The translations under genes and the position numbers were made by a program. Positions 10,101 through 46,671 of a DNA stretch of 64,000 nt are shown in pieces; positions within the stretch are counted from its first letter, which is position 1; each line of letters opens with the position of its first letter. The notes under the pieces are model-generated. The model had not been told where the DNA came from. It saw nothing but the letters and a program-made list of their open reading frames with translations, and did no database searches. Source of the DNA: a plasmid. Where the stretch lies: sequence record NZ_CP024426.1; one strand, given 5' to 3'.

Positions 10101-13092
10101 CGACTACCCCGACGAAGGGCTGGCCGACATGCCGCTCGACGCGCTGGACCTGCAATGGCGCGAGGCGCAGGGCAAGTCCTGGCCCTTTGCGGGCATGGCG
10201 CAGAAAAAGCTGCGCCGGATCCTGCAAAGCTACGCCCGCTCGGGCGAGGCGGACCCGGCGCGCGACCTGCCCGCGCTGCGCCAGCTTCAGCGCGCCAGAC
10301 GCGACATCGACGGGTCGGACCTGCGCGGGGTGCCGGGCTTTGCGCAGGAACGCTCGGACCCGGCCCGCATCCGGCAAGAGCTTGAGGCCGCGCAAGGCTT
10401 TCTGGGTCTGGAACGCCACCTGCGGGCGGCCGGACTGCCGGCGTCGGTCCTGGGCGCGCAGCGGGCGGAACTGGCCCGCGCCTCGGGCGGAGAGATGGCG
10501 GGCCTGCTGCGGGCGCTGCGCGACGCCGACCGCGCGACCGAAACGGCGCGCGCGGATTTCGCCGAGCTGGGCGGCGCCCTGCCCCCGCAGGCCGAGGCGC
10601 TGCTGGCCGATCTGGAACCCCTGCAGCACCATTTCAGCGACTGGCTGAAATGGCGCGCGTGTCGCGCCGAGGCCATCGCCGCCGGGCTGGAGCCGCTGGT
10701 CCGCGCCATCGAGGACGGCGCCGCGCTTGCCGACACCGCCTGCGCCTTCGAACAGGCCTACATGGCCTGGTGGCTGCGCCTGGCGATGGACGCCGAGCCC
10801 TGCCTGCGCGGCTTTGCCCATTGGGAGCACGACGCCCTGATCCGCCGGTTCCGCGACCTGGACGACACCTTGGCCAACCTCGCCTCGGCCGAGGTGATGC
10901 GCCGCTTGGGCAACGACCTGCCCGCGCGTGACAGCGTCCCGCGCAATTCGGAACTGGGCATCCTGCGCCAGCAACTGGGGCTGCAGCGCCCCTCGCGCGC
11001 GATCCGCAGCCTGATCGCCGACATGCCGACGACCTTTGCCCGGCTTGCGCCCTGCGTGCTGATGTCGCCCCTGTCGGTCGCGCAATACCTGCCCGCGGGC
11101 CAGGCGCAGTTCGACCTGGTCATCTTTGACGAGGCCTCGCAGATCTCGACCTGGGATGCCATCGGCGCCATCGCCCGCGGCCGGCAGGCGATCATCGTGG
11201 GCGACCCCAGGCAGTTGCCGCCCACGAACTTCTTCGGGCGCAGCGACGAGGGCGTCGAGGAGGGTGCGGCCCTGGCCGACCATGAAAGGGACATGCCCTC
11301 GATCCTGGACGAGGCGGCGGCGGCGGGCATCCCGACCCACCGCCTGAACTGGCACTATCGCAGCCGGGACGAGGCGCTGATCGCCTTTTCCAACCACTTC
11401 TACTATGACGGGGGGCTTGTCACCTTCCCCTCGCCCGGCGGCGCGGGCGACGCGGTGCGGCTGCACAGGATCGCCGGCACCTATCAGCGCAGCAAGGGTG
11501 CGACCAACCCTGACGAGGCCCGCGCCATCGCGGCCTTCATCCGCAACCGCCTGACGGGCTGGCTGGCCCTGCCCGAAGCGGCGCGCCCGACGCTGGGGGT
11601 CATCACCTTCAACGCCCAGCAGCAGGGGCTGATCCTTGACCTGCTGGACGCCGAGCGCAAGGCCGACCCGGCCCTGGAATGGTTCTTCGCCGACGAGCGC
11701 GAGGAGCCCGTGATCGTCAAGAACCTGGAAAACATCCAGGGCGACGAACGCGACGTGATGCTGTTTTCCGTCACCTTCGGCCCCGACCAGGCCGGCAAGT
11801 TCACCATGAACTTCGGTGCGATGAACAAGGACGGGGGCGAGCGGCGGCTGAACGTGGCGGTGACGCGCGCCCGGGCGGAACTGCATGTCTTCGCCTCCTT
11901 CGGCGCTGACCAGATCGACCTGGGCCGCACCCGCGCGCGGGGCGTGGCCGATCTCAAGGCCTTCCTGGACTTTGCCGAACGCGGGCCGGTGGCGCTGGCC
12001 GCACAGGACAGCGGCTCGGTCGGTCCCGCCGAGTCCCCGTTCGAGGAGGCGGTCCGCGATGCCCTGGCCGCGAAGGGCTGGCAGGTGCAGACCCAGATCG
12101 GCGTCTCGGGCTTTCGCATCGACCTGGGCGTGCGCCATCCCGACCATGCCGGCGTCTGGCTGGCCGGGGTGGAATGCGACGGGGCACGCTATCATTCATC
12201 GGCCACGGCGCGCGACCGCGACCGCATCCGTCAGGCCGTGCTGGAGGGATTGGGCTGGTCCATCCTGCGCGTCTGGTCCACCGACTGGTTCCGCACCCCG
12301 CAGGCCACGGCAGACCGCATCGACACCCGGCTGCGCGAGATCCTGGAGGCCGACCGCGCCCGCCGGGCCGAGGCGGCGCCCGAGGTCGCGGTCGACCTGC
12401 CCGCCCAGCCCGACCTGCCCGCCCAGCCCGACCTGCCAGACCTGCCCGACCTGCCAGACCTTCCCGGCACGGATGAGGGCCCGGCCGACAGCGTGCCCGG
12501 ACCGGACGCAGGCCACCCCGCGCCGCCCGCCGACGACGCGTTGCCCGCGACCGATGTCCCCCCTTTGTCCACGCCCCGGCCCGACCCCGAGCGGTTCTTC
12601 GACGCGGATTACACGGCGGACCTGCGGGCGATGATGCGGGACATCGTCGCGGCCGACGGACCCATGCCCGACGCAGCCCTGGCCCGCAGGATCGCCCAGG
12701 CGCATGGCTGGCAGCGGACGGGCGCGCGCATCCAGTCCCGCATCGCGGCGCTGCACGGCGACTTCGACCGGACCGAGGAAGCCGGGGTCCGCTTTCTGTG
12801 GACCCGCGGCGCCGTTCGCGACCGGCTGCCGTTTCGCGGTCTTGGCGAACGGGCGCTGCGCGAGGTGTCGCGGGCCGAGATCGCCGAGGTGGTGGACCGG
12901 AATGCCGACCGGATCGCCGCCGCCCCGGATCCCGACCTGGAGCTGGCGCGGCTGTTGGGCATCGCCCGGCTCAGCAAGGACGCGCGGGACTATCTGCGGG
13001 ACTGCCGCGCCTGGCGCGACGAAACCACCCTGCCCCGGCCGGGCGGCACGTCAAAGGCCGGGATCAGCCCTGATAGCCTCGGCGGCGCTTGA
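7186..13092 (+). CDS. Giant multidomain protein: transglutaminase-like cysteine-protease fold, DUF4011, Upf1/DNA2-like SF1 helicase, DUF559/Vsr-like restriction-endonuclease fold, DUF3320
   Basis: TGc-like core GLATCLDSTLLLAAAFEAAGLNTAVLFSQGHAWAGVWL; DUF4011-like RWQRKLLDLSLANRLLNF; Walker A LIGPPGTGKSQTITN; helicase motifs DLVIFDEASQ, IVGDPRQLPPT, WHYRSRDEALIAFSN, RLNVAVTRARAELHVFAS; REase-like GFRIDLGV...ECDGARYHSS...RDRIRQAVLEGLGWSILRVWSTDW; DUF3320-like C-terminus. ATG at 7186 is preferred over the TTG at 7072. Confidence 0.85.
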   Translation: MLDEDAPVTPPDAVGVLTLHAVLAAKVNFASAQNGVAIVKQLGIENPGPDPIRDVRLTLSASPGLLRDKTWAIDRIAPGTTVQLADLDTPLDTALLGGLDEAEFGQLEFRLTAQDLPETTSAHRVEMLARDEWGGLAEMDNILAAFVSPNHPAVAQILKEASRLLEAGGYSGALDGYQSGDPLRAWMLAGAIWSAATGLGLSYAVPPASFEQAGQKIRDPGRVLAEGLATCLDSTLLLAAAFEAAGLNTAVLFSQGHAWAGVWLQRKDFGRLVEPDVVAVRKAVAAREFVPMETTLLTRRPAVGFEEAVDAGRDRLSEAREAEFIQAVDINRARAARIRPLASHRPQDEGPDEPGTATPAALPRPLDLGLLPGELVDETPTTAIGRIERWQRKLLDLSLANRLLNFRETRGAVPLICPDISGTEDRLAHGEVFRLLALKDEQAVGGRDLAPEDARRIELDLARDALSRGQIAVPLTARDMVDRLTELYRKARSDLAEGGTNTLFLAVGFLRWKRPGDDSRTHRAPLLLLPARLDRRSAQSEFRLSQLEDEVRINATLLEMLKRDFELRIPELEGELPRDDSGLDIARLLDILRHRVRDVPGFEVVEDCALSTFSFAKYLMWKDLVDRTDSLRESRLVAHLVDSPTEVFAGAAVPMPHPRDIDRKHAPGDLLAPLPADSSQLAAVLAAAEGRDFVLIGPPGTGKSQTITNIIADQLGRGRTVLFVAEKSAALDVVHRRLERHGLGHAVLELHSSKADRKSVLAQLGRSWDRASAANAQDWVRVAEDLRLTRDQLNAYVDALHRPSTQGFSVYQAIGRVAGGTPGFALRFDNKDCHDQAGFQRLRTLAADLGARHRIVAGLDPQGPLSLLDRGEWSFGWQDRYLDSARALRRARAAASEAGQALAARLGLTGADAAHPDIAAALVWLAAQRLDQPAVAPEALALAEAGTGTDAALAALTEALSRAAQARAALAADYPDEGLADMPLDALDLQWREAQGKSWPFAGMAQKKLRRILQSYARSGEADPARDLPALRQLQRARRDIDGSDLRGVPGFAQERSDPARIRQELEAAQGFLGLERHLRAAGLPASVLGAQRAELARASGGEMAGLLRALRDADRATETARADFAELGGALPPQAEALLADLEPLQHHFSDWLKWRACRAEAIAAGLEPLVRAIEDGAALADTACAFEQAYMAWWLRLAMDAEPCLRGFAHWEHDALIRRFRDLDDTLANLASAEVMRRLGNDLPARDSVPRNSELGILRQQLGLQRPSRAIRSLIADMPTTFARLAPCVLMSPLSVAQYLPAGQAQFDLVIFDEASQISTWDAIGAIARGRQAIIVGDPRQLPPTNFFGRSDEGVEEGAALADHERDMPSILDEAAAAGIPTHRLNWHYRSRDEALIAFSNHFYYDGGLVTFPSPGGAGDAVRLHRIAGTYQRSKGATNPDEARAIAAFIRNRLTGWLALPEAARPTLGVITFNAQQQGLILDLLDAERKADPALEWFFADEREEPVIVKNLENIQGDERDVMLFSVTFGPDQAGKFTMNFGAMNKDGGERRLNVAVTRARAELHVFASFGADQIDLGRTRARGVADLKAFLDFAERGPVALAAQDSGSVGPAESPFEEAVRDALAAKGWQVQTQIGVSGFRIDLGVRHPDHAGVWLAGVECDGARYHSSATARDRDRIRQAVLEGLGWSILRVWSTDWFRTPQATADRIDTRLREILEADRARRAEAAPEVAVDLPAQPDLPAQPDLPDLPDLPDLPGTDEGPADSVPGPDAGHPAPPADDALPATDVPPLSTPRPDPERFFDADYTADLRAMMRDIVAADGPMPDAALARRIAQAHGWQRTGARIQSRIAALHGDFDRTEEAGVRFLWTRGAVRDRLPFRGLGERALREVSRAEIAEVVDRNADRIAAAPDPDLELARLLGIARLSKDARDYLRDCRAWRDETTLPRPGGTSKAGISPDSLGGA
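12398..12470 (+). repeat. In-frame tandem hexapeptide/dipeptide repeat (PDLPAQ x2 followed by PDLPDL...) in the helicase linker
   Basis: DNA cccgcccagcccgacctg cccgcccagcccgacctg ccagacctgcccgacctgccagacctt encodes AQPDLPAQPDLPDLPDLPDLPG. Confidence 0.7.
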
Positions 13093-13354
13093 CGCGGGCC
13101 AGGCGCATCAGGGCGGTGATCGCCTCGCCCTCGTCGCGGTGGGGTTCGATCAGCATGTGGCCCCGGGTGCCGATGCGGCCCCATTCGCGGATCAGGCTGG
13201 TGCCGCCGAACAGGTCGCGCTCGACCCTCATGCGGTAATAGCGGTTCATGTTGCGTTCCGCGTCGCAGCGGCGCAACCGAAGCTGGCGGGGAAAGACCTC
13301 GGCCTGGGGATCGTCGCAGTCTGACATGAGGATGCTGCCTGTTCCGCCGGCCAT
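13064..13354 (-). CDS. WGR-domain protein (small nucleic-acid-binding domain protein)
   Basis: Motif RYYRMRVERDLFGGTSLIREWGRIGTRG matches the WGR signature (Y..Q/R..LFG..L...WGRIG). Its 3' end overlaps the helicase gene by about 29 nt (convergent). Confidence 0.7.
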   Translation of the reverse strand: MAGGTGSILMSDCDDPQAEVFPRQLRLRRCDAERNMNRYYRMRVERDLFGGTSLIREWGRIGTRGHMLIEPHRDEGEAITALMRLARVKRRRGYQG

Positions 13355-36433: not shown

Positions 36434-36541
36434 ATGAAACCCCTGGTTCTTTTCCTGACGTTGACCTTTTCCCTGATTGGTGCCCTGGACAGCGGCCCGG
36501 CCCACGCCGGACCTTGCAATCCCAACGTCCAACGCTGCTGA
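36434..36541 (+). CDS. 35-codon secreted peptide precursor: Sec-type signal peptide plus a 10-aa mature peptide GPCNPNVQRC with two cysteines
   Basis: AGGAGG Shine-Dalgarno 5 nt before the ATG; MKPLVLFLTLTFSLIGALDSGPAHA|GPCNPNVQRC has an n/h/c signal-peptide layout with an AHA-G cleavage site; it is followed by a GC-rich hairpin and T-tract (36556-36597). Below the 60-aa ORF-track threshold. Confidence 0.45.
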   Translation: MKPLVLFLTLTFSLIGALDSGPAHAGPCNPNVQRC

Positions 36542-36612
36542 ACGACTCCGGCGCCGACCCCTGGGGCCGGCGCCCGGTTTTCCGTATTTGTTAATCGGTA
36601 TTCGGAGGCCCC

Positions 36613-39600
36613 ATGGCAGACCCATGGCCGGCCGAGGTGCCCGCGTCCCTGTGGACCTTCAACCAGCTTTCCGCCGAAGAGGTGGTGCAGGTCCCCATGA
36701 TGGGCGTCAAATTCGCCTCGGGCTTCTTGTACGCCTTTGCCTTTGGCTGCATTTTCATCGCGGTTTTCGCCTGGCAAAGATTTCGCATCAAGACGGTGGT
36801 GAAATCCCCGTCGCGCGCCCTGACCCAGCTTGGGCCCAATGACCTTGGCGGCCAGGCTGCCCTGATCCGGGCCTATTTCATCTATGCGGGCTCGATCCTG
36901 CTGCTTTATGTCTCGTTGACGTTCTTTGGCAAGCTGCTGGTGCAGATGGCCCGCCTGGTGCCTGCCATCGGCATCGACGCCTATGCAGACAAGCTGCGCT
37001 TCGACAGCCCGCAATGGCCGCTGATGCTGGCATTCGGCTTTGCAGGCCTGGCGCAGATGCTGCCCCCGGTCGCCGCGATCGAAGGCTGGCTGCGGCTGCG
37101 CGCCTATCGCGCGGTGGGCATCCCGGTGCGGCTGGAACAGACCATGCGCAACCTGATCGTGACCCTGGAGCGCGCGGGGCCGAAAGGCGACCTAGAGGAA
37201 TCCCCGCTGGGCAAGGCGCTGTCATGCTATCGCGCGCAATGGGACGGGATAATCAAAGGCCACGCCTGGGCGGGCGCCTGGGCGCGGCGGCGCGCGAGCC
37301 GCGCGCAGGACCTGGTTTCGCTGTTGTCGCAGCTTGAACTGCTGGTGTCCTGGTCCAAAAGCAAGCGCGGCAGCTGGCCGGGACACGAGGTGTCCCAGAC
37401 CGTGCGCGACCTTGAGGAAACCTATGTCCGCGAAAGCGGAGACCTGCTGAACGAATTCCAGCAGCGCATGAGCGAACCGCCCGAGATCGACGACAGGCGC
37501 CTGTCCGGCACCCGCGAGGCCCGGTTGGACGATTATCTTAACACGACGTTCAGCAAAGCCGAAGGCTTGCGCCATGACTTGGTGGGAATCCTTGCGATCT
37601 TTCTGGAACGCGACATCGACAGCCCCGACCGCACTGATGACTTCAAGGATCACAGCTATACGGACCCTGCCCTGCACGCGCTTCTGATCAAGACCGCGCG
37701 GGCGGACAGCGCGGGGACAGGCCCGGAATCGGGGCTGTTCGCCGCCCTGATCGCCGTCTTCGTCCTGTGCGCCGCCGCGGCTTGGCGGGGACTGCAGGAT
37801 CCGGTGGGGCAATATGTCGAGCGGACGAACCTTTACGGGATGCTGATCTCGGCGCTGGTGGAAACGCTGCGCCTGGCTTCCCTGACCTGGCTGCCGCTTC
37901 TTGCCGCATTTTCGCTGCGCCAATACCTGTGGGACAACGGCGACTGGGCCCGCGCGCGCTACAGCACCAAGCCCGATCACTATGCCGGGCAGATCCTAGT
38001 CTGCACGTCGCTTGGCGTTGCGACAGGTGTGCTGGGACTGGTTCTGGTGGCTGCGCTGAAGGCGTTCTTCATTGCCACAAACCGCGAGTATTTTGCCGAA
38101 TTGCTGGCGGGGGGCCCCGCGCCGTTCCTGCTTTACTATCCGACGCAGGCGATCATCCTGCCCGCGCTGATCCCCCTGGCCATCTATTCCGCCGATCTAA
38201 GCAAGACCCCGCACCGCCGGCTGATCTGGGGTGTCGTGGCGGCCCTGGTGATCGGGACGCTATGGCTTGCCCATGCAACCTACTGGAACGGGACCGTCCT
38301 GATCCGCGACTGCGTGTCCGCGACCGCAATTCTGACCGAGGCCTGCGTCCGCCGGATGGACCTGATAAGCCATCTGGCCCTGATGACACTGACCTTTCTG
38401 GCGGTCGGCATCTTTGGCGACCTGCCCGAGCGGCGCCGCGCGAATGTCCGTGAACGCGAGCGGACCGGGACAGGCGTCGAAAGCGCCGCCGGTCTGGCAT
38501 TGCTGGCGATGCTGTTCCCGATGCTGGTCTTGGCGCCAACGTCAGCCCGCGCCGAGCCCGAGCCGGTTCGCATCGGGTTTCGCTTCGACATCGCGCCATT
38601 TTCCTATCGGAATGAAGCAAGCGGCCCGCGCCAGTTCCACGGCTATCTGGCCGATATGTGCTTTGACATCTTCGACGGCTATCCCGCCTACAAGGTCGAG
38701 GCCGTGCCCGTCGGGGCGAAAGACCGCTTCGACATGTTCAACGCGGGTAACGTGGATCTCTTGTGCGACGCCGTTACCATGCGGTTTTCCGAACGCGACC
38801 GATCCGAAAAGGGGATCTATTCACCCATCGTCTTCGTATCGGGCGTGTCCTATCTGGAAACGGGCAACCGCAATGTCGGGGCGGTCGCTCTGGGCTTCGT
38901 GCTGAACGCGACGGCGCGGGACGTTGCGCTCAAGACCTGCCATGTGGACCAGTTTCGGGTCTTCATGCCGGATACGCGGGCGCTGCTGGTGGAACGCTGC
39001 AACCTGCGCTGGCAGGCGGCATTGCTGGCCCAGCGTTTGCTGAACGAACCAAGCATCGTGCAAAGCCCCGCAAGCCAGATCGCGGTCACGCAGGTCGATC
39101 CACGCCGGCGCGCATCCCTTGATGCTGTCATGGAGTCTTGGCGTCGCCTGCACGAGGACTGGGAAACGCTTCACCAAAGGGCCGAAAATCTGAACACGAT
39201 GGTCCAGGACCAGAACATCACGCGGTTGAGCACCGCCACCACGGCACTGATCAAAACCGTGCTGAGTGACGGGAACGGTATCCAGACCTGCCTGGACAGC
39301 CTAGGGAGGAACGCTGCGGTCTGCGCCGAGGCCAGCAAAGCCCTGTCCGACCCGCGTTGCGGCGGGATCGCCGACAAGAACGCCTCTGCCAAGGCACCGG
39401 CCGATGCGAACATCCCCTTTGAGCAGCGCATATGGGACGATTACAGTTTTTGCCCCATGTCCGACCACGGCGCGCTGATCAAGTGGTTCTGCACATCCGG
39501 CAAGGACCTGCGCCGAGTCTATCTGGGCGACCGCGAGCTGATCGTCGCCAAGCGCGACGCCTGGGCGCGCGACATCGGTTCATGCCCGGTGCAGCGGGCC

Positions 39601-39897
39601 GAGGGGGCCGAGTTCCTGTCCTATGAGCCTTATGCATTTCTGGTTCAAAGGAAAAAGCCCGCCCTGGCGGCCTTCGTCCAGCAGCGGGTCTATGAGCTGT
39701 TTTCGAACCGCGCCCAGATGATCGCGCGCTTCAACGCCAGCTTTTCCAGGAAGGATGCTTCCGGCAGCGGCCAGCCGGATGTTCGCATGTCCGTGCCTCT
39801 GGCCTATCTGTTCCTGCTGAACGCCGTCGAGAACGACACGCTGTTCCTGCCGAACGCCGATCTGTCGCCGGAAGCGGCGGCGGGGAACCGCCCTTAG
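36613..39897 (+). CDS. Large polytopic membrane protein with a periplasmic-type solute-binding (SBP_bac_3-like) domain and a C-terminal Cys-rich domain
   Basis: About 10 predicted TM helices in two clusters (aa 30-140 and 370-620); then a signal-anchor-like segment LALLAMLFPMLVLAPTSARA; then a family-3 SBP-like domain (RIGFRFDIAPFSYRN...GYLADMCFDIF...DLLCDAVTM); C-terminal 200 aa with at least 7 Cys. Local GC is visibly lower than in the flanks. Confidence 0.8.
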   Translation: MADPWPAEVPASLWTFNQLSAEEVVQVPMMGVKFASGFLYAFAFGCIFIAVFAWQRFRIKTVVKSPSRALTQLGPNDLGGQAALIRAYFIYAGSILLLYVSLTFFGKLLVQMARLVPAIGIDAYADKLRFDSPQWPLMLAFGFAGLAQMLPPVAAIEGWLRLRAYRAVGIPVRLEQTMRNLIVTLERAGPKGDLEESPLGKALSCYRAQWDGIIKGHAWAGAWARRRASRAQDLVSLLSQLELLVSWSKSKRGSWPGHEVSQTVRDLEETYVRESGDLLNEFQQRMSEPPEIDDRRLSGTREARLDDYLNTTFSKAEGLRHDLVGILAIFLERDIDSPDRTDDFKDHSYTDPALHALLIKTARADSAGTGPESGLFAALIAVFVLCAAAAWRGLQDPVGQYVERTNLYGMLISALVETLRLASLTWLPLLAAFSLRQYLWDNGDWARARYSTKPDHYAGQILVCTSLGVATGVLGLVLVAALKAFFIATNREYFAELLAGGPAPFLLYYPTQAIILPALIPLAIYSADLSKTPHRRLIWGVVAALVIGTLWLAHATYWNGTVLIRDCVSATAILTEACVRRMDLISHLALMTLTFLAVGIFGDLPERRRANVRERERTGTGVESAAGLALLAMLFPMLVLAPTSARAEPEPVRIGFRFDIAPFSYRNEASGPRQFHGYLADMCFDIFDGYPAYKVEAVPVGAKDRFDMFNAGNVDLLCDAVTMRFSERDRSEKGIYSPIVFVSGVSYLETGNRNVGAVALGFVLNATARDVALKTCHVDQFRVFMPDTRALLVERCNLRWQAALLAQRLLNEPSIVQSPASQIAVTQVDPRRRASLDAVMESWRRLHEDWETLHQRAENLNTMVQDQNITRLSTATTALIKTVLSDGNGIQTCLDSLGRNAAVCAEASKALSDPRCGGIADKNASAKAPADANIPFEQRIWDDYSFCPMSDHGALIKWFCTSGKDLRRVYLGDRELIVAKRDAWARDIGSCPVQRAEGAEFLSYEPYAFLVQRKKPALAAFVQQRVYELFSNRAQMIARFNASFSRKDASGSGQPDVRMSVPLAYLFLLNAVENDTLFLPNADLSPEAAAGNRP

Positions 39898-39934
39898 CCG
39901 ACCCATCCGCAACCCTTGCAGGCAGGAGCCGCCC

Positions 39935-42900
39935 ATGAAGCTGCAGATCCACGGCCAAAAGCAGGTCCCGGTCGACGAGACGCCGGCAGCAAACGGGGCC
40001 GTTACCGTCGAGGTCAAGGACAGGGTCACCGTGACCGGCCTCCGCGGCGATGCCCTGCCGGTGCAGATCGACCTGCCGCCGGACCATGTGCTGGAACTGC
40101 AGATGGAGGGCGAGGGCGCCCCCCGCCTGCTGCTGCGCGGGGACGAGGCGCAGGCCCTGCTGGCGGGCGGCGCGGCGATGACCCGCGACGGCGCGGGCGA
40201 CGATCTGCTGGTGCTGCCGACCCATCTGCAGCTTGACCCGCCCGCGCGCGGTCGCCGCGGTCTGGACCGGGGACTGCTGGCCTGGGCGGTTAAGACCGTC
40301 CAGGTGCTCAAGGTCGATGGCAAGCCCGCCGAGGCAGCCCGCCAGCTTGAGGATCAGAACCCCGCGCTGGGGCTGAACCGCTGGCTGCCCGACGGCACGC
40401 TGGAGCCCCTTGCCCCCGGCACCGCAGCCGAGGGCAAGACCTGGCTTTTGTTCCTGCACGGCACGGCCTCTTCGACGCTGGAGGGCTTTGGCAAGCTGAT
40501 CGGGGCGCAGCCGGCGATCTGGCGCCAGCTGCATGCGACCTACCCCGGACGGGTGCTGGCCTTCGACCACCGCACCCTGACCGAGGATCCGATCCAGAAC
40601 GCCACGACGCTGCTGGCGGCGCTGCCTCCGGACATCACTCTGCACCTTGTCAGCCACAGCCGCGGCGGGCTGGTGGGCGAATTGCTGGCCCGGCCGCAAC
40701 TGGTCGCGCCGGGCACCGACACGGTGTTCGACCCGGCCGAGGTGCAGGAACTGGCCGAACGGGACCGCCCTGCGGCCGAGGAACTGGGCCAGGCGCTGGT
40801 CGCTAGCGGGGTGCGGGTCACGCGCTTTGTCCGGGTGGCCTGCCCGGCGCGCGGCACCGACCTTGCCGGTGGCCGGCTGGACCGCTGGCTGAACCTGCTG
40901 TTCAACCTGGTGCAGCAAACGATCGACCCCCTGGCCATCGACGATGCTGTGAAGCGCAAGGTCGAGGGGCTGCGGCGGCTGGCCTTGGCGGCCTCGGCCG
41001 GGAAAGACAACCCCGACGCCCTGCCCGGCATCGCGGCCATGGCGCCGGATTCGTCCCCGCTGCTGGCCATCCTGAACCGCCGCCCCGCCAACCCCGCCCC
41101 GCCCCAGGACGAAGCCCCCGCACAGGACGGGCTGGTCGTCATCGGCGGCGACGCCGAGCCGGCGGGCGTCGTCAAGCGCCTGCTGGTCTGGCTGGCCGAC
41201 GCGCTGCTCCAGGGAGAGAACGACCTGGTGGTGGAAACCGGCTCGGTCGGGGGCGGGACGCCCCGCGCCGTGGCCCCGCCCCTGGTGCTGGATCGCGGGC
41301 CGCAGGTCGATCATTCGCGCTTCTTCGCCAACGACCGGACCGCGCAGGCGATGCTGCTGGGATTGCGCGACCCCGCCCTGCTGAGAGAGGGCTCGGTCCC
41401 CTCGCTGCCCGAGCAGATGCGCGAGGCCGAGGCCAGGCTGCGCAGCACGATCCGCTCGGCCGATGCCGCGCCTTTTCTGTCGCGGGGCCGGGGCACGCCA
41501 CTGGCCGTTATACTGCCTGGGATCACCGGCAGCCACCTTGCCGTGGGGAAGAATCGCGTCTGGGTCAGCCCTTTCGGCATCTGCACGCGGGGCGTGAAGT
41601 CCCTGGCGCTCGGCAAGACGCAGATCACGGAAGACGGGGTGGTCGGGCTTTACTACGGCGCGCTTTGCGATCATCTGGCGCGCAGCCACGAGGTCGTGGC
41701 CATGCCTTATGACTGGCGCCTGTCCCTGCAGGACCTGGGCGCCCGCCTGGCGGCAAGGCTGACGGCCCTGCTGGCCCAGGACGACAGCCGCCCGCTTCAC
41801 ATCGTCGGCCATTCGATGGGCGGGCTGGTCGCGCGCATGGCGCTGGCCCAGTCGCCCGAGCTGATGCGCGGCTTTCTGGCCCATCCCGAATCGCGCTTGC
41901 TGATGCTGGGGACGCCGAACGGCGGGTCCTGGCAGATGGGGCTGGCGCTGTTGGGACGGACCCGGACGGTCAAGGCGCTGGCCCTGCTCAGCCCGCATGA
42001 CGACATCGGCGACATCACCGCCATCCTGCGCGAATGGCCCGGCGCGGTGCAGCTTTTGCCGCCCGAGCTGCTGGTCCCGGAACCCTGGGCGGGATTTGAC
42101 GCCGAAGCGCCCTCGGCCCAGGCTTTGGCCTTGGCGGCGCAGGCCCAGGTCCTGCTGCGGGACAAGGCGGGCATTCCGAAAGGCCGCAGCCTTTACGTCG
42201 CCGGGATGGGCGATACCTGCGCCGAGCTTCTTGTCGTCGATGGCGCGTTGAGCATGCGGGTTTCGCCCGAGGGCGACGGCACCGTCTTGTGGCGCACCGG
42301 CATCCCCGACGGGGTCCCGGTCTGGTATGCGCCGTCGGAACACGGCGACCTGTGCAAGGACGCCTATCTGCATCCGGCAATCGCCGACCTGCTGCTGCGG
42401 GGAACGACCACCCTGCTGTCGGACCGGCCGGGCCGGCGCGGGGCGACTGCCGCAGTGGCGGCCACCCAGGTCGTCCCGGCCACGGAGGTTCTGCCCCTGA
42501 TCCCTTCGGGCCCGCAGCTGCTGGCGATGGCCATGGGGGCCAGCCCGCCCGCGCTGCTGGACCGCTCGGCCCCCAGCCCCGAGGTCCGCGTGACCGTGGT
42601 CCACGGCAACCTGGAGTTCGCGCGCCACCCGATTCTGGTCGGCCACAACCTGGGCGATCCGATCATGGGGGCCGAGGCGGCGCTGGACCGCAGCCTGAAC
42701 GGCAGGCTCAGCCGGCGCAATGCGCGCGGCCTGCACCCCGGCATCATCGAAAGCTGGGATGTGCATGTGGAACCCGTCACCACGACCGATGCGGGCGGCG
42801 CGGCGGGCACGGGCCTGCGGGGCGGCATCGTGGTGGGGCTGGGCGTCGCCTCGGCACTGACCACGGGCAGCCTGATGCGGACCATCCGCTGCGGTCTGCT

Positions 42901-45304
42901 GGCCTATGCCGACGCCGTCCAGCAGACCGACACGGACCGGCGCGCCCTGGCCGTTTCGGTGGTGTTGCTGGGCAGCGGCAGCGGCATGATCGCGGTCGCC
43001 GACAGCGTCAACGCCATCCTGAACGCGGTCGACCAGGCCAACCGCCTGCTGGAAACCGAGCCTGCCGGCGCGGTCCCGGGCGACGAGCCCCTGCGCTTTA
43101 CCGAGATCGAGATCATCGAGTCGGTCGAACAGATCGCCGTCACCGCCTGGCACTCGGCGCGCGGCCGCATCACCCGCCTGCCCGGCCGCTTCGCCCTGGC
43201 CGGCCGGCTGGAGCAGGGGCGTGGCGGCTGGCGCCGGACCGGCCCCGAAACCGCGCCCGACTGGTGGATGGAGGTGTCGATCACCTCGGACCCGCCCGAG
43301 CCGGCCGCGCCCGGCCAGCCCGGCCGCGAAGGCCCGCTGCGCTATCTGCTGGTGGACGGGCGCGCCCGGGTCGAGGCCAAGGTGGTCGCCACCAGCCGCC
43401 GGCTGGTCGGGCACTATGTCTCGATGATCCCGGACAGCGTGGGCATGGCGGACCCGCGGGGCCTGTCGCCGGGGCGGACGCTGTTTGAACTGCTGTGGCC
43501 CGCAGAGCTGAAGCAGCACAGCATCGAGGACCGCAACCTGCGCTTGGTTCTGGACCGCGAGACGGCTGCGATCCCGTGGGAGATGCTGGACGACCGCCGC
43601 CCCGCGCGCGACGGCTTCGGCGAAGAGGTCCTGATGGCGACCAAGCCCCCGTCCGTGCGCTACGGGGTGCTGCGCCAGCTGTTGGCGCAACGCGAGCGTC
43701 CGCTTCGGCCTCTGGGCGGCGGCAACCGGCAGGCGCTGGTCATCGGCGATCCGCGCGGGGGCGGCAGCACGCTGCCCACCCTGCCCGGCGCCCGGGCCGA
43801 GGCCGAAGCGGTCGCAGGTCTGCTGGAGGCGGCAGGCTATGGCGTGACGCGCATGATCGGCGACACCGCCACCCCGGACCAGGTGATCGCCGCGCTGTTC
43901 TCGCGCGTGTGGGACGTGATCCATGTGGCCAGCCACGGCGTCCTTGACTGGCAACCCACCCCCGACCAGCCGCCGCGCACCGGGATCGTGCTGGGCGCGC
44001 CGCCGCTGGACGTGATCGAATCCGGCATCCTGGCGCAACTGCCCGAGCCGCCGGCGCTGGCCTTTCTGAACTGTTGCCACCTGGGCAGCATCCCCGAAAG
44101 CGACCGTCACCTGCGCCGCGACCGGCCGGCCCTGGCCGCAAGCCTGGCGGTCGAACTGATCGAGGCGGGCTGCCCCGCCGTGGTCGCCTGCGGCTGGGCC
44201 GTCGACGACGGCTCCGCCATGCGCTTTGCCCGCACGCTTTACACCGATCTTTGCGGCGGCCAGAACTTTGGCGCCGCCGTGCGCCATGCGCGCGAGGTGG
44301 CCCATGACGGCGCCACCACCGACAACACCTGGGGCGCCTATCAGTGCTATGGGCATCCGGGCTTTGCGCTGTCGCTTGCGCCCAGGGGCTGGACCGAGGC
44401 CACGCCGGACGCCGCCTCTCCGTCCGAGGCGGTGGCGGTTCTGCAGCGCCTGAGCACCTGCGCCACCGCCCCGCCTGCGCCGCTGTCCGGCGATCCCGCC
44501 GGGACCCAGCGCCTGCGCCAGGACTTCTTGGCCACGCGCGAGGCCGATTTGATCCGCCTGGGCAAGTTCGAGGAGGACATCCGCAGGAACGGCTGGGCCG
44601 ACCGCTCGGATGTGGCAAGCGCGCTTGGCGATGCCTATGCCGCCTGCGGCGACATCACCAGCGCCGTCGATGCCTATCGCCGCGCGGCCATGGCCGAGAC
44701 GCTGACCCTGCCGGTGCGCGCGCTGCAGGACCGATTTGCGCTGCCTTTGCGCCTGCCGAAGGATGACGCCAACGAACTGCGCGCCGCGGTCCAGGCGATG
44801 GGCCTGCTGAACACCGCCTGCGGCCCCAGCCCGCAGCGGCTGGAACTGATCGCGGGCCTGCACCTGCGCCTGGCCGCCCTGGAAAGCCAGGCCAAGCCCC
44901 GGAACGCCGCGCTGGACCAGGCCCTGGACGCGCTGAACGAGGCGCATGATCTGGCCACCCAAGGCGGCAGCGTTGCCGCGGCCGGGCGTATCGCGCTGCG
45001 GCGGCTGCTGGCGGCCATCCTGCGCGGCAAGAATGCGGCCGACACGGCAACGGCCGCCGGGGCGGCGCTGGCGGCCTTGCCACGGGACGACCCGCAGCGC
45101 CCGCTGGCGCTGTTCCTGCAGGCGCTGGCGCAGGGCGACACGAATGCAATCGCCGCCCTGCCCCGGGACGACGCCCTTCAAGCCCTGGACTCCGACACGC
45201 TGTGGACCCTGGCCGAGGCGGCGCGGCTGGCCGGGGACTGCCTGACCGGATCCTTGGGCGATGCGGCCAAGGCCTGCGCCCGCGACCTGTCGATGCTGAT
45301 CTAG
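39935..45304 (+). CDS. 1789-aa multidomain protein: N-terminal domain, two lipase-like alpha/beta-hydrolase modules, CHAT (caspase-like) protease domain, C-terminal helical (TPR-like) repeats
   Basis: GxSxG nucleophile elbows LHLVSHSRGGLVGELL and LHIVGHSMGGLVARMAL (Lipase_2/PGAP1-like); CHAT hallmarks VIHVASHGVLDW (His) and ALAFLNCCHLGS (Cys), about 160 aa apart; Ala/Leu-rich helical repeat tail; no signal peptide; RBS AGGAG before the ATG at 39935; 37-nt gap from the upstream gene. Confidence 0.85.
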   Translation: MKLQIHGQKQVPVDETPAANGAVTVEVKDRVTVTGLRGDALPVQIDLPPDHVLELQMEGEGAPRLLLRGDEAQALLAGGAAMTRDGAGDDLLVLPTHLQLDPPARGRRGLDRGLLAWAVKTVQVLKVDGKPAEAARQLEDQNPALGLNRWLPDGTLEPLAPGTAAEGKTWLLFLHGTASSTLEGFGKLIGAQPAIWRQLHATYPGRVLAFDHRTLTEDPIQNATTLLAALPPDITLHLVSHSRGGLVGELLARPQLVAPGTDTVFDPAEVQELAERDRPAAEELGQALVASGVRVTRFVRVACPARGTDLAGGRLDRWLNLLFNLVQQTIDPLAIDDAVKRKVEGLRRLALAASAGKDNPDALPGIAAMAPDSSPLLAILNRRPANPAPPQDEAPAQDGLVVIGGDAEPAGVVKRLLVWLADALLQGENDLVVETGSVGGGTPRAVAPPLVLDRGPQVDHSRFFANDRTAQAMLLGLRDPALLREGSVPSLPEQMREAEARLRSTIRSADAAPFLSRGRGTPLAVILPGITGSHLAVGKNRVWVSPFGICTRGVKSLALGKTQITEDGVVGLYYGALCDHLARSHEVVAMPYDWRLSLQDLGARLAARLTALLAQDDSRPLHIVGHSMGGLVARMALAQSPELMRGFLAHPESRLLMLGTPNGGSWQMGLALLGRTRTVKALALLSPHDDIGDITAILREWPGAVQLLPPELLVPEPWAGFDAEAPSAQALALAAQAQVLLRDKAGIPKGRSLYVAGMGDTCAELLVVDGALSMRVSPEGDGTVLWRTGIPDGVPVWYAPSEHGDLCKDAYLHPAIADLLLRGTTTLLSDRPGRRGATAAVAATQVVPATEVLPLIPSGPQLLAMAMGASPPALLDRSAPSPEVRVTVVHGNLEFARHPILVGHNLGDPIMGAEAALDRSLNGRLSRRNARGLHPGIIESWDVHVEPVTTTDAGGAAGTGLRGGIVVGLGVASALTTGSLMRTIRCGLLAYADAVQQTDTDRRALAVSVVLLGSGSGMIAVADSVNAILNAVDQANRLLETEPAGAVPGDEPLRFTEIEIIESVEQIAVTAWHSARGRITRLPGRFALAGRLEQGRGGWRRTGPETAPDWWMEVSITSDPPEPAAPGQPGREGPLRYLLVDGRARVEAKVVATSRRLVGHYVSMIPDSVGMADPRGLSPGRTLFELLWPAELKQHSIEDRNLRLVLDRETAAIPWEMLDDRRPARDGFGEEVLMATKPPSVRYGVLRQLLAQRERPLRPLGGGNRQALVIGDPRGGGSTLPTLPGARAEAEAVAGLLEAAGYGVTRMIGDTATPDQVIAALFSRVWDVIHVASHGVLDWQPTPDQPPRTGIVLGAPPLDVIESGILAQLPEPPALAFLNCCHLGSIPESDRHLRRDRPALAASLAVELIEAGCPAVVACGWAVDDGSAMRFARTLYTDLCGGQNFGAAVRHAREVAHDGATTDNTWGAYQCYGHPGFALSLAPRGWTEATPDAASPSEAVAVLQRLSTCATAPPAPLSGDPAGTQRLRQDFLATREADLIRLGKFEEDIRRNGWADRSDVASALGDAYAACGDITSAVDAYRRAAMAETLTLPVRALQDRFALPLRLPKDDANELRAAVQAMGLLNTACGPSPQRLELIAGLHLRLAALESQAKPRNAALDQALDALNEAHDLATQGGSVAAAGRIALRRLLAAILRGKNAADTATAAGAALAALPRDDPQRPLALFLQALAQGDTNAIAALPRDDALQALDSDTLWTLAEAARLAGDCLTGSLGDAAKACARDLSMLI

Positions 45305-46671
45305 GAGGGCGCGCTGTCGCCCAGGCGATCGTACCAGCGCCGGGCATGAAGGCGCAGCGCGTCGGCCTGCGCGGGCACCGGCCAGGTCCGGGTGGCGGGT
45401 GCGGTGCGGGGCGGCAGGCACAGCAGCGCCGCCCCGACCGAGGTCCCCGTGGCCGAGGTCGCGGTTTCCACCCCCTCGCCGCGCAGCGCGGCCAGCATGT
45501 CGAGAAAATCGCCATTGCGGGCGAAGGGCCCCTCGACGATGACCGGGCCCTGCGCGCCGACCAGGCGTAGGCAACTGTCGGTCATCAGCGCCAGATACCA
45601 GGACAGGGCGGCCATGCGCTGGCAGTCGCCCGCAGGCGGTCGGGTCCACGCCATTGTGCGGCCACGGAATGGGCCGGAACCCGGCTCGACCGCCGGCAGG
45701 ATCATCAGCCCGGCGTCCAGCGCGGCCGCGCGGTCGCGGTCGGACGGCTCGGCGGCGCTGCCGGCGCGAATGATCTCGAACTCGCGCCCGCCCATGAACC
45801 GGGCCGAGGGCGTGGGCGCCCCCAGCGCATTCACATTGACCAGCACGTCGCGGCCTGGGTCCAGCGCGCCGGGCCGGCCGCCCACCGCCATCGCCACCAC
45901 CCAGGTGCCGGTCGAGACCACCGAGAACGCCCCCTGCCGCCCCAGCACATGCGCGAAAAGCGAGGCGTTGCTGTCATGGATGCCGACCGCGACCGGCGTG
46001 CCGGCCGGGATGCCGGTGGCCTGCGCGACATCGGGCAGCAGGCCGCCCAGCACCTCGTTCGCGCGGCGCGCCGGGGCGATGCGGCCGGTCAGGTCCAGCC
46101 GTTCGACCAGATCCGAGAACCGTCCCGACCAGGGGTTCCAAAGATCGGTGTGGCAGCCCAGCGAGGTCACGTCGCTGGCGCGTTCCCCCGTCAGCCGCCA
46201 GCCCCAGTATTGCGGATAGGTCACGACATCGGCGACGTGCCCCGCAACATCGGGGTCCGACAGCAGCCAATGCAGTTGCGCGCCCAGGTTCAGCCCCATG
46301 GGCAGCCGGGGCGAGCCGGTCTGCGCGAAATCGGGCCGGATCGCGTCATAGGCAGCGGCCAGAGTGTCGGGGCCGGGGTGTTCGTAGTCCAGCATCGGCA
46401 GCGCCCGCCCCTGCCCCTCCAGCAGCACGGCCGAGGCGCCATGCGTCGTCACCGAGATCGCATCGACGCCGTGCCGGGCATGGAAATCGGCCAGGTGGTG
46501 CAGAAAGAACTGCCAATGCCCCTCAAGGTCGAAATGCGGCCAGGGGGGGCCGGGCAGGACGCGGTTCGGGCGGGTGACGACGGCGATCTCGGCCAGGGTC
46601 TCGGCCTCGACCAGCGCCAGCTTGGCATTGGTCTTGCCGATGTCGATGACGGCGATGCGGGCGGGGGTCAT
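45301..46671 (-). CDS. rhaK: FGGY-family carbohydrate kinase (rhamnulokinase-like)
   Basis: FGGY N-terminus [15 protein letters not shown]; last gene of the rhaRSTPQUK-like operon; start at the complement of 46669-46671. Confidence 0.8.

What the first reader, a model, noticed from the sequence alone, without database searches (positions are those of the whole stretch)
39935..45304. 1789-aa protein combining two lipase-type alpha/beta hydrolase modules with a CHAT caspase-like protease and TPR-like tail
Two independent GHSxGG-type nucleophile elbows (VSHSRGG at about aa 240; VGHSMGG at about aa 630) precede a CHAT domain with an intact His/Cys dyad. The dual-lipase plus CHAT combination is unusual. 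It suggests an effector that could both process proteins and attack lipids. CHAT domains are recurrent in anti-phage and abortive-infection contexts.
Basis: partly seen in the sequence, partly recalled or inferred. Interest (0 to 1): 0.8.

Follow-up and report, generated by a model that had tools for sequence, protein, structure and literature searches.

The report
Caspase-like protease fused to two lipases
This Paracoccus yeei plasmid gene does fuse two intact lipase-type enzymes to a caspase-like protease, but it belongs to a large, catalogued and untested bacterial family that looks like a self-cleaving suicide or defence enzyme, and here it sits behind a previously unannotated secreted mini-peptide and its rapidly diverging membrane receptor.

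Summary
ORF 39935-45304 (+) is a real 1789-aa gene with two serine-hydrolase modules (S242, S627), a CHAT protease (H1334, C1380/C1381) and a TPR tail.

The fusion is not unusual. It defines a widespread family (Pfam DUF7379 + CHAT; over 1000 protein clusters, at least 595 species genomes), and its catalytic residues are almost invariant. No experimental paper on it was found.

Relatives often sit next to stand-alone caspases, TIR genes and TPR-S genes, or carry a fused TIR. A "macro-CHAT-TPR" core also exists without the lipases.

Best reading, by analogy with published caspase-activated alpha/beta-hydrolase zymogens and TIR-caspase immunity: a protease-gated lipase death effector. This is inferred, not shown.

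The window itself holds no recognisable defence neighbours. The gene is instead co-oriented with a 1094-aa membrane protein that has a periplasmic binding domain. That gene is preceded by a conserved 35-aa ORF encoding a secreted C-x6-C decapeptide.

Between two P. yeei strains the receptor is only 65% identical and the mature peptide differs at 2 of 10 residues, while the CHAT protein is 98.8% identical. This resembles pherotype divergence.

The parts
39935..45304 (+). Whole gene: 1789-aa DUF7379-CHAT protein. It is cytoplasmic, with no signal peptide and no convincing TM helix.
   Evidence: 98.6% identical to P. yeei WP_080623266.1 'CHAT domain-containing protein'
39935..40429 (+). N-terminal domain (aa 1-165), poorly conserved apart from G7, R37, R84, R112-G113 and G146. 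Candidate pro-region carrying candidate Arg cleavage sites (R84 at 40184-40186; R112-G113 at 40268-40273, in a loop with pLDDT below 50).
40430..41449 (+). Alpha/beta-hydrolase module 1 (DUF7379, aa 166-505). Oxyanion H175-G176, nucleophile S242 (40658-40660), acid D406 or D430, H460 (41312-41314), helical lid insert at about aa 310-395.
41477..42439 (+). Alpha/beta-hydrolase module 2 (LCAT/PGAP1-like, aa 515-835). S627 (41813-41815), D781 (42275-42277), H803 (42341-42343). It ends at the conserved R835 (42437-42439) in the linker.
42548..43459 (+). Middle region (aa 872-1175): a macro-fold / leucine-aminopeptidase-N-like domain (about aa 880-1090) followed by a beta-rich connector. Invariant G903, H904 and E914; D908 in at least 90%.
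43469..44359 (+). CHAT caspase-fold protease (aa 1179-1475). H1334-G1335 (43934-43939), C1380-C1381 (44072-44077).
44402..45301 (+). All-helical TPR tail (aa 1490-1789), homologous by colinearity to the TPR-S (PF20308) region of relatives and structurally like the ASK1 regulatory TPR. It is the most divergent part of the protein.
36613..39897 (+). Upstream partner gene (37-nt gap): a 1094-aa inner-membrane protein with about 9 TM segments and a C-terminal periplasmic type-2 binding-protein domain carrying 10 conserved Cys. Conserved next to the CHAT gene in the Paracoccus clade.
36434..36541 (+). Small ORF absent from the plasmid gene tables consulted (35 aa): Sec signal peptide, AxA|G cleavage motif, mature peptide GPCNPNVQRC (C-x6-C). 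AGGAGG lies 5 nt upstream. Present before every homologue of the membrane gene examined.
36550..36581 (+). GC-rich hairpin followed by TTTTCC, between the peptide ORF and the membrane gene. It looks like a terminator or attenuator, but the evidence is weak.
   Evidence: z-score only -1.28

Best explanation
The gene encodes a cytoplasmic, single-chain, protease-gated lipase effector.

The C-terminal half (macro-fold domain, CHAT caspase-like protease, ASK1-like TPR-S repeats) is an autonomous regulated protease core. The N-terminal half (a roughly 165-aa pro-region plus two catalytically intact lipase/LCAT-type alpha/beta-hydrolases) is its cargo.

The proposed sequence is as follows.

1. A trigger switches on the CHAT protease. 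In many relatives this is probably an ADP-ribose-derived nucleotide made by an adjacent or fused TIR domain and read by the macro and/or TPR-S domains. In this Paracoccus clade it is more likely an input from the co-transcribed membrane receptor.
2. The protease cuts its own chain, in cis or in trans within an oligomer, after conserved arginines in flexible segments (R84 and R112|G113 before hydrolase 1; R835 after hydrolase 2).
3. The released or unlocked lipases attack membrane lipids, causing growth arrest or death of the cell. This would be an abortive-infection-type or other conflict response.

Shown here: the domain architecture, conservation of all catalytic residues, modularity of the core, family-wide gene neighbourhoods, and the conserved partner genes. 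Inferred by analogy only: protease activation, self-cleavage at Arg, lipid substrates, and the lethal outcome.
For: Architecture and intact active sites.

The core exists on its own. 24 of the 150 best representatives carry the core with at most about 75 residues before it; most are 874-1041 aa and 21 start with Met. A 936-aa R. leguminosarum plasmid protein is colinear with aa 877-1650 (34% identity) and is flanked by two giant TIR proteins. There are variants with only hydrolase 1 or only hydrolase 2 and variants with a C-terminal TIR (13 of the 120 best hits).

Neighbourhoods in 84 loci: a stand-alone Peptidase_C14/C11 gene on the same strand, usually immediately upstream (30 loci; median gap 53 nt), TIR_2 genes in about 13, TPR-S/MAP3K_TRAF_bd proteins in 9, Peptidase_M15_3 in 10. 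SLATT and DUF4062 lie near the Falsiroseomonas copy.

Conserved arginines: R37, R84 and R112-G113 (95-98% Arg; 92% Gly at position 113) are islands in an otherwise 32-59% conserved N-domain. R112-G113 sits in a loop with pLDDT below 50, and R835 (97%) sits in the low-confidence linker.

Literature: caspase domains in conflict systems always come with a neighbouring alpha/beta-hydrolase (PMC7159879). LcCaspase cleaves the LcHydrolase zymogen at two R|G sites and the fragments kill cells (10.1101/2025.11.14.688446). TIR-made N7-cADPR activates an Arg-specific caspase-like protease (10.1101/2024.10.24.620036). A Macro domain senses His-ADPR in type II Thoeris, and the TPR-S type repeat was predicted to take part in TIR signalling (10.64898/2025.12.03.692087).
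Against: Nothing in this window marks a defence island. The flanks are BrkB, topoisomerase IB and rhamnose catabolism on a large metabolic plasmid.

No TIR, small caspase, TPR-S or M15 gene is found in the 64 kb. PADLOC gives only a partial CHAT-level hit. There is no match in phage genomes.

The Arg-site argument is statistical and modest. 6 of 21 conserved Arg lie in the 11.7% of residues with low pLDDT, and Gly follows R835 in only 53%.

The model coordinates could not be inspected, so occlusion of the active sites and the S1 pocket are unknown.

This copy's tail has no significant PF20308 hit.

The peptide-receptor pair also occurs without any CHAT gene, so its functional coupling to this gene is inferred from adjacency in one clade.
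Confidence: 0.5

Rival explanations
1. Peptide-controlled kin-recognition or quorum-type switch. The secreted C-x6-C decapeptide is the ligand of the periplasmic binding domain of the membrane protein. Presence or absence of the cognate peptide, rather than phage infection, decides whether the CHAT-lipase protein is unleashed or kept silent. This concerns the input and overlaps with the best explanation for the output.
For: The peptide ORF is present 61-114 nt upstream of the membrane gene in all 8 distinct loci read, plus 2 metagenome loci. It has a Shine-Dalgarno sequence, an AxA|G signal-peptidase motif and synonymous codon changes that preserve the peptide.

Ten conserved Cys in the C-terminal domain fit a periplasmic location.

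Two P. yeei strains share 98-100% identical flanks and a 98.8% identical CHAT protein. Their receptor is only 64.9% identical (37-43% over aa 781-960). The mature peptide carries the only two changes seen in the 13 terminal codons compared, both non-synonymous.

The gene order peptide, receptor, CHAT is kept in unrelated neighbourhoods.
Against: No binding or signalling evidence exists. The receptor has no recognisable cytoplasmic output domain. The pair occurs alone between housekeeping genes. Most of the DUF7379-CHAT family lacks it. The allelic divergence could reflect one recombination event rather than selection. In strain CCUG 32053 the receptor gene is annotated as two CDS, yet the CHAT gene is intact.
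Confidence: 0.2
2. Parallel dual effector. Once activated, the CHAT protease degrades cellular or phage proteins indiscriminately, as in type IV Thoeris or PCaspase. The lipases independently attack lipids, with no zymogen relationship between them.
For: Arg-specific promiscuous caspase-like effectors are established. All three active sites are conserved. The core-only proteins show the protease can be an effector on its own.
Against: The published hydrolase-caspase pair works by cleavage of the hydrolase. Conserved Arg islands lie in flexible loops that flank the hydrolase block. Constitutively active lipases in the cytoplasm would need some lock.
Confidence: 0.15
3. Physiological rather than conflict role: a regulated lipid-remodelling or envelope-signalling enzyme of a metabolic plasmid, for example responding to a periplasmic cue through the binding-protein receptor.
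For: The neighbourhood in this window is metabolic. LCAT-type enzymes are acyltransferases as well as lipases. The receptor resembles solute-binding proteins.
Against: The family-wide association with TIR, caspase, SLATT and TPR-S genes, the patchy accessory distribution, the plasmid location and the absence from related Paracoccus replicons that share the rhamnose operon all point to a conflict system.
Confidence: 0.1
4. Secreted or injected antibacterial lipase toxin, such as a T6SS Tle-type effector carrying a processing protease.
For: Lipase-type folds. In Paenirhodobacter the gene follows a T6SS_Tle1-like_cat protein.
Against: There is no signal peptide or TM helix. There are no PAAR, VgrG, Rhs or secretion genes and no immunity-like small gene in the annotated neighbourhood. 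The macro, CHAT and TPR-S domains and the TIR links are hallmarks of intracellular signalling systems.
Confidence: 0.04

Closest known systems
Pfam DUF7379 (PF24096) + CHAT (PF12770) proteins; RefSeq 'CHAT domain-containing protein' WP_080623266.1 of Paracoccus yeei
   Same: Full-length colinear homology and the same domain order. Hits are 98.6% identical on three P. yeei plasmids.
   Different: Nothing differs. This is the family the gene belongs to. The family has no described function, and no paper in the library mentions DUF7379.
Caspase-activated alpha/beta-hydrolase zymogen module (LcCaspase/LcHydrolase; Evans et al. 2025 preprint, 10.1101/2025.11.14.688446; pairing first noted by Kaur et al. 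2020, PMC7159879)
   Same: A caspase-fold cysteine protease genetically coupled to a lipase-like alpha/beta-hydrolase. There are conserved Arg(-Gly) motifs in flexible segments. Roughly a third of family loci also carry a small stand-alone caspase upstream.
   Different: Here the protease and hydrolases are one polypeptide, there are two hydrolase modules, and a macro domain and TPR-S repeats are added. Sequence homology to LcHydrolase was not tested, and cleavage is not shown.
Type IV Thoeris (TIR + caspase-like protease activated by N7-cADPR) and type II Thoeris (Macro-domain effector sensing His-ADPR)
   Same: Caspase-fold effector, a macro-fold domain and TPR-S repeats. Relatives are fused to, or flanked by, TIR domains.
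   Different: No TIR gene in this window. There is no PADLOC Thoeris hit. The protease is a CHAT-type domain with lipase cargo. The ligand is unknown.
SAVED-CHAT (type III CRISPR / CBASS-associated) and Craspase TPR-CHAT (Csx29)
   Different: The sensor position holds a macro fold, not SAVED. The TPR is C-terminal. No CRISPR or CBASS genes are adjacent. Those proteases cleave separate substrates (PCaspase, Csx30).
Borvo (BovA), the single-gene CHAT defence system in PADLOC
   Same: A CHAT domain. It is the only PADLOC model hit.
   Different: The hit covers only profile positions 508-670 of 711 at E 9e-6. The rest of the protein is unrelated.
Peptide pherotype systems (agr AgrD/AgrC, ComX/ComP): allelic peptide-receptor pairs (own knowledge, for comparison only)
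   Same: A small secreted, cyclised peptide gene lies next to a membrane receptor gene. Divergence is sharply localised to the mature peptide and the receptor between strains of one species.
   Different: The peptide here is Sec-exported and probably disulfide-looped. The receptor has a periplasmic binding-protein domain and no histidine kinase. The downstream gene is a protease-lipase, not a regulator. No homology.

Membership tests
DUF7379-CHAT family | PF24096 and PF12770 both above Pfam gathering scores, in that order | tested here: met
   126.5 bits against a cut-off of 33, and 108.7 against 24
DUF7379-CHAT family | Full-length colinear homology to family members | tested here: met
   Most of the 120 listed hits cover about 85-100% of the query, at 32-58% identity (98% for the near-identical P0001) and mostly 1750-1830 aa, with about 2130 aa for the TIR-fused subgroup. 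196-sequence alignment.
Lipase-type alpha/beta-hydrolase (both modules) | Nucleophile elbow Ser, acid and His conserved and in canonical strand-loop positions | tested here: met
   S242, D406/D430, H460 and S627, D781, H803. S627 is Gly in 2 of 30 homologues.
Lipase-type alpha/beta-hydrolase (both modules) | Fold similarity to solved lipases or acyltransferases | tested here: met
   LCAT 5txf E 1.2e-7; Burkholderia and Pseudomonas lipases; BlEst2; PlaB. The search used the two-module model, so the assignment of hits to each module is not resolved.
Lipase-type alpha/beta-hydrolase (both modules) | Hydrolysis of lipid esters | not testable with these tools
   Needs an enzyme assay.
CHAT / caspase-fold protease | His-Gly and Cys catalytic dyad at the ends of adjacent strands; caspase-hemoglobinase fold | tested here: met
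Caspase-activated alpha/beta-hydrolase zymogen module | Caspase-like protease genetically linked to an alpha/beta-hydrolase | tested here: met
   Fused in one ORF.
Caspase-activated alpha/beta-hydrolase zymogen module | Hydrolase homologous to the LcHydrolase / VMAP-associated hydrolase family | not tested
   The reference sequence was not obtainable with the tools.
Caspase-activated alpha/beta-hydrolase zymogen module | Two conserved R|G cleavage sites in the hydrolase | tested here: inconclusive
   R112-G113 are conserved (98% and 92%) in a disordered loop. R835 is 97% conserved, but Gly follows in only 53%. The sites flank the hydrolases rather than lying within one.
Caspase-activated alpha/beta-hydrolase zymogen module | Cleavage-dependent toxicity | not testable with these tools
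   Needs an experiment.
Thoeris (types II/IV) | TIR-domain gene in the same operon | tested here: not met
   No TIR homologue in any frame of the 64-kb window. TIR is present or fused in a minority of relatives.
Thoeris (types II/IV) | Effector matches Thoeris effector models | tested here: not met
   No Thoeris model among the PADLOC hits.
Borvo | Full-length match to the BovA model | tested here: not met
   Partial: profile positions 508-670 of 711, E 9.2e-6.
Macro domain | Macro fold | tested here: met
Macro domain | ADP-ribose-type ligand-binding pocket | not tested
Conserved G903, H904, D908, E914, G968 and G970 are noted only.
TPR-S (PF20308) | Significant match to PF20308 | tested here: inconclusive
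T6SS Tle-type lipase effector | Secretion-system genes, a delivery domain or an adjacent immunity gene | tested here: not met
   None among the annotated neighbours or in the Pfam scans.
Craspase / SAVED-CHAT | Adjacent type III CRISPR or CBASS genes; SAVED domain | tested here: not met
   No such genes in the annotated region. The sensor position holds a macro fold.

The most novel reading that the evidence does not exclude
A three-gene plasmid module forms a new kind of self/non-self or 'guard' switch.

A Sec-exported, disulfide-looped decapeptide (GPCNPNVQRC) is read in the periplasm by the binding-protein domain of a polytopic membrane receptor. The receptor in turn licenses or restrains a cytoplasmic macro-CHAT-TPR protease that self-cleaves to release two lipases.

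The peptide-receptor pair diversifies into pherotype-like alleles within a species, while the killing enzyme stays constant. Elsewhere (Rhizobiaceae) the same pair lies near, not adjacent to, other lipase/protease genes: GDSL lipase-caspase, trypsin, and patatin with subtilisin.
Probability: 0.2. Interest if true: 0.85.

Novelty: new variant of a known kind. Interest (0 to 1): 0.6.

Why it matters
If the model holds, one polypeptide contains a complete sensor, protease and executioner cascade. It would be a convenient system for studying how caspase-like proteases license lipid-degrading death effectors. The family is among the larger uncharacterised CHAT families: 1262 representative clusters at 50% identity match the core alone.

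The macro and TPR-S domains, together with the TIR links, make it a candidate for a new nucleotide-sensing branch of TIR immunity.

The peptide-receptor pair found beside it appears to be undescribed. No Pfam family matches it, it is absent from the plasmid gene tables consulted, and the solved-structure search found no relative of the receptor. Its strain-level divergence next to a conserved effector is the kind of pattern that has elsewhere revealed specificity systems.

The host, Paracoccus yeei, is an opportunistic human pathogen. All three matching plasmids come from clinical isolates.

Tried and rejected
- **Antisense ORF.** The 1972-aa ORF 39731-45649 was rejected as a high-GC artefact.
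- **PDB sequence searches.** The whole protein and the membrane partner gave no match. A profile of the middle domain gave only marginal hits (E 0.013-0.018), so the fold evidence rests on predicted structures.
- **Failed look-up.** The look-up of P0002 failed.
- **Small-peptide searches.** Pfam on the small peptides found nothing. The degenerate DNA pattern found only 2 metagenome loci.
- **Phage collection.** No match.
- **Defence partners in the window.** phmmer with TIR, caspase, TPR-S and M15 neighbours of relatives found nothing in the window. A Thoeris-like operon here is therefore rejected.
- **Recent tandem duplication of the two hydrolases.** Rejected. hhalign relates only their first roughly 90 residues (probability 95%).
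- **Terminator after the peptide ORF.** The pattern is present but not better than shuffles.
- **Intermediate-length relatives.** Many turned out to be truncated gene calls that start inside hydrolase 2. Only P0297 (hydrolase 1 only), a few LCAT-only forms and the forms with an unrecognised 220-290-aa N-terminus are taken as possible real variants.
- **Not done.** The N-terminal domain fold could not be identified, and triad geometry, lid occlusion and the S1 pocket could not be checked.
Full report
**1. The observation**

The ORF at 39935-45304 (+) exists, starts with ATG six bases after an AGGAG, and encodes 1789 residues. The window has about 70% G+C and many spurious long ORFs, including a 1972-aa antisense ORF across the same region. 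Codon-position G+C (0.75/0.53/0.89) and the translation identify the + frame as the gene.

Pfam finds DUF7379 (E 1.6e-36), an LCAT-type alpha/beta-hydrolase (aa 584-671, E 1.9e-7) and CHAT (aa 1179-1473, E 5e-31). TPR_2 is not significant.

**2. Where the window comes from**

The window is colinear, at 98.6% nucleotide identity, with plasmid 'unnamed5' of Paracoccus yeei FDAARGOS_252 (NZ_CP020445.2, about 47.8-111.8 kb) and with two other P. yeei plasmids from clinical isolates. RefSeq calls the gene 'CHAT domain-containing protein' and the upstream gene 'transporter substrate-binding domain-containing protein'.

The surroundings are carotenoid, leucine and rhamnose catabolism genes, BrkB and topoisomerase IB. 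Related Paracoccus plasmids share the rhamnose operon only up to the end of the CHAT gene, so the cassette is accessory.

**3. The family**

The full-length protein has 1017 homologous 90%-identity clusters at E <= 1e-10. Nearly all are 1750-1830 aa with the same domain order, across Alpha-, Beta-, Gamma- and Deltaproteobacteria, Acidobacteriota, Nitrospirota, Chloroflexota, Bacteroidota, Planctomycetota, Verrucomicrobiota and Mycobacterium.

The paper library holds no mention of DUF7379.

The catalytic residues of all three enzymes are invariant or nearly so at 29-59% overall identity. This rules out a pseudo-enzyme scaffold.

**4. Anatomy from predicted structures**

Two AlphaFold2 models built on 60-sequence alignments are confident (pLDDT 86.7 and 85.8). 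The domains are:

- **aa 1-165:** a mixed beta/alpha domain with a disordered loop at 103-114.
- **aa 166-505:** hydrolase 1, with a helical lid insert.
- **aa 515-835:** hydrolase 2.
- **aa ~880-1090:** a macro-fold domain.
- **to aa ~1175:** a beta-rich connector.
- **aa 1179-1475:** CHAT.
- **aa 1490-1789:** an all-helical repeat tail.

The N-terminal half matches LCAT, Burkholderia and Pseudomonas lipases, BlEst2 and PlaB.

The C-terminal half matches:

Sequence evidence agrees for the middle domain. 12 of 28 members hit Peptidase_M17_N, with a best E-value of 2e-5.

The two hydrolases are related only over the oxyanion-to-elbow segment, so they are not a recent duplication.

**5. Modularity**

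A phmmer scan of 1.84 billion representatives with the macro+CHAT core (aa 872-1475) gives 1262 representatives at E <= 1e-30. The best 150 divide as follows:

| Class | Count |
|---|---|
| Full-length architecture | 99 |
| 'Core-only' proteins (at most ~75 residues before the core; most 874-1041 aa, 21 starting with Met) | 24 |
| Intermediate length | 21 |
| N-truncated fragments | 6 |

Many of the intermediates are truncated gene calls, but they include forms with hydrolase 1 only or with an LCAT-like module only.

A 936-aa core-only protein on R. leguminosarum pRL31b3 aligns with aa 877-1650 (34% identity) and is flanked by two giant TIR-domain proteins. Thirteen of the best 120 full-length homologues carry a C-terminal TIR_2.

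The N-domain and the tail are the fastest-evolving parts.

**6. Neighbourhoods of relatives**

In 84 loci the recurrent neighbours are:

- a stand-alone Peptidase_C14 (or C11) gene on the same strand, usually immediately upstream: 30 loci, median gap 53 nt;
- TIR_2 genes: about 13 loci;
- MAP3K_TRAF_bd/TPR-S proteins: 9 loci;
- a Peptidase_M15_3 gene overlapping the 3' end: 10 loci.

SLATT, DUF4062 and two TIR genes surround the Falsiroseomonas copy. These are hallmarks of the conflict systems described by Kaur et al. (PMC7159879). None of these genes is detectable anywhere in this window. PADLOC returns only a partial BovA (Borvo) CHAT hit.

**7. Mechanism**

The closest experimentally supported logic comes from Evans et al. 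(10.1101/2025.11.14.688446). A caspase-like protease cleaves its neighbouring alpha/beta-hydrolase zymogen at two conserved R|G sites, and the fragments kill the cell. The hydrolase's substrate is still unknown.

Bacterial immune caspases studied so far are Arg-specific (10.1101/2024.10.24.620036).

In this family, R37, R84 and R112-G113 are islands of 95-98% conservation in an otherwise weakly conserved N-domain. R112-G113 lies in the pLDDT <50 loop. R835 (97%) lies in the low-confidence linker after hydrolase 2. Cuts there would free a roughly 78-kDa double-lipase fragment.

The enrichment of conserved Arg in low-confidence segments is modest: 6 of 21 in 11.7% of residues. This is a lead, not proof.

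The conserved acid loop of hydrolase 1 (aa 422-440) is also modelled with low confidence. That would fit an unlocked or locked transition, but it could equally be a modelling weakness.

For the input, macro domains sense His-ADPR in type II Thoeris, and the TPR-S type repeat has been proposed to read TIR products (10.64898/2025.12.03.692087). Together with the TIR fusions, this makes a nucleotide trigger plausible for much of the family.

I put the protease-gated lipase model at about 0.5.

**8. What is special about this copy**

The gene lies 37 nt downstream of a 1094-aa protein with about nine TM segments and a C-terminal SBP_bac_3-like domain that carries ten conserved cysteines, so that domain is periplasmic. 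The pair recurs in Paracoccus sp. DMF in an unrelated neighbourhood, with overlapping stop and start codons. Judging by shared contig lengths, it also recurs in most of the Paracoccus clade.

The membrane-protein family is small: 73 clusters, found only in Paracoccus and Rhizobiaceae among the named sources. In Rhizobiaceae it is not next to a DUF7379 gene. It lies near other lipase or protease genes: a GDSL lipase-caspase fusion, a 904-aa trypsin-like protein with a GDSL/amidase/M15 protein, a CHAT protein with patatin and subtilisin, and a dienelactone hydrolase. It can also stand alone.

**9. The small ORF**

Before the membrane gene in every locus read (8 distinct loci plus 2 metagenome contigs) there is a 34-38-codon ORF. 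In the window it lies at 36434-36541. It has a GGAG-type ribosome-binding site, a Sec signal peptide and an AxA|G cleavage motif.

The mature peptide is 10-12 residues with two invariant cysteines six residues apart. Examples are GPCNPNVQRC, GVCDPNLQRC, GSPCNPNIQNCP and GPCDRSVATC. Synonymous changes preserve the peptide between genera.

It has no Pfam match. It is absent from the plasmid gene tables consulted, although those tables are incomplete by construction. One metagenome assembly's gene caller did call it.

**10. Allelic divergence**

A second P. yeei assembly carries the same locus. The table compares it with the window.

| Element | Identity between the two P. yeei strains |
|---|---|
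| Flanks and CHAT gene (nucleotide) | 98-100% |
| CHAT protein | 98.8% (22 substitutions, 6 of them in the last 115 residues) |
| Receptor gene (nucleotide) | falls to 43-82% |
| Receptor protein | 64.9% overall, 37-43% over aa 781-960 |
| Mature peptide | N4D and V7I, the only two differences in the 13 terminal codons compared, both non-synonymous |

This localised divergence of a peptide-receptor pair beside a constant effector resembles pherotype or specificity-group polymorphism. Whether selection or a single recombination event produced it was not tested.

In strain CCUG 32053 the receptor gene is annotated as two CDS, which may be a frameshift.

**11. Verdict**

The finding is real and its description accurate, but the 'unusual' label is wrong. 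The gene is a typical member of a large, named yet functionally unknown family.

That family is best understood as a fused variant of the known caspase-hydrolase death module, with a macro/TPR-S sensor core that links it to TIR signalling.

These may provide a different input in this clade.

Novelty: a new variant of a known kind. Interest is moderate to high, mainly because it is testable.

Noticed in passing
window 36434-36541 (+); also L001 6578-6685, L087 8798-8911, L088 8782-8907, L089 7770-7886, L090 7813-7923, L095 6821-6928, L096 5892-5996, L097 ~2060-2162, L098 ~12009-12110 (-): Conserved 34-38-codon ORF absent from the plasmid gene tables consulted: signal peptide, AxA|G, then a 10-12-residue peptide with C-x6-C (consensus G-P-C-[ND]-P-N-[VIL]-Q-[RN]-C). 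It always lies 61-114 nt upstream of the 1094-aa membrane/binding-protein gene. No Pfam family matches it.
   Followed up: partly
window 36613-39897 compared with L095 7001-10213: Two P. yeei strains have near-identical flanks and CHAT gene, but a receptor only 64.9% identical (37-43% in part of the periplasmic domain) and two non-synonymous changes confined to the mature peptide. This looks like pherotype-type allelic divergence.
   Followed up: partly
L094 4614-7897 (P. yeei CCUG 32053 pYEE1): The membrane/binding-protein gene is annotated as two overlapping CDS (the matched stretch is 1 nt shorter), while the CHAT gene is intact. This could be a frameshift pseudogene or a sequencing error.
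   Followed up: no
window 45139-45301 (CHAT protein aa 1677-1789): 6 of the 22 substitutions between the two P. yeei CHAT alleles fall in the last 115 residues, including charge swaps D1776K and K1779E. This region is far from the diverged receptor gene. It may co-vary with the receptor allele or be chance.
   Followed up: no
window 7063-13092 (+) and 13075-13338 (-): A 2009-aa DUF4011 / AAA_11 / AAA_12 / MTES_1575 nuclease / DUF3320 helicase-nuclease protein with a small WGR-domain gene next to it. This is a possible defence-type gene about 24 kb from the cassette.
   Followed up: no
window 39731-45649 (-): A 1972-aa antisense ORF, longer than the real gene. It is an Arg/Gly/Ala-rich artefact of 70% G+C and could mislead gene callers.
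   Followed up: yes
L087, L088, L089, L090 (Rhizobiaceae loci of the membrane-protein family): The peptide-receptor pair lies near other lipase and protease genes: Lipase_GDSL_2+Peptidase_C14; a 904-aa Trypsin_2 protein with a GDSL/Amidase_3/M15 protein; a 1655-aa CHAT protein with patatin and S8; and DLH. It also lies near CBASS-like Cap15/JAB/ThiF genes and a DUF6361/PLD/helicase cluster.
   Followed up: partly
L092 1996-15886 (R. leguminosarum pRL31b3): A 936-aa 'core-only' macro-CHAT-TPR protein sits between two giant TIR-domain proteins (1322 and 1473 aa) on a conjugative plasmid.
   Followed up: partly
84 family loci (L003-L086): A Peptidase_M15_3 gene of about 200 aa overlaps the 3' end of the DUF7379-CHAT gene in 10 loci. 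A conserved roughly 520-aa multi-TM protein of unknown family lies downstream in 7 loci, within 1 kb in four of them (cluster 8).
   Followed up: no
window 41198-41254 (aa 422-440 of the CHAT protein): The highly conserved loop carrying D430, a candidate catalytic acid of hydrolase 1, is modelled with low confidence (block pLDDT 57-65), unlike the rest of the domain.
   Followed up: no
window 36550-36581 (+): A GC-rich hairpin followed by TTTTCC lies between the peptide ORF and the membrane gene. It looks like an attenuator but folds no better than shuffled sequence (z -1.28).
   Followed up: yes
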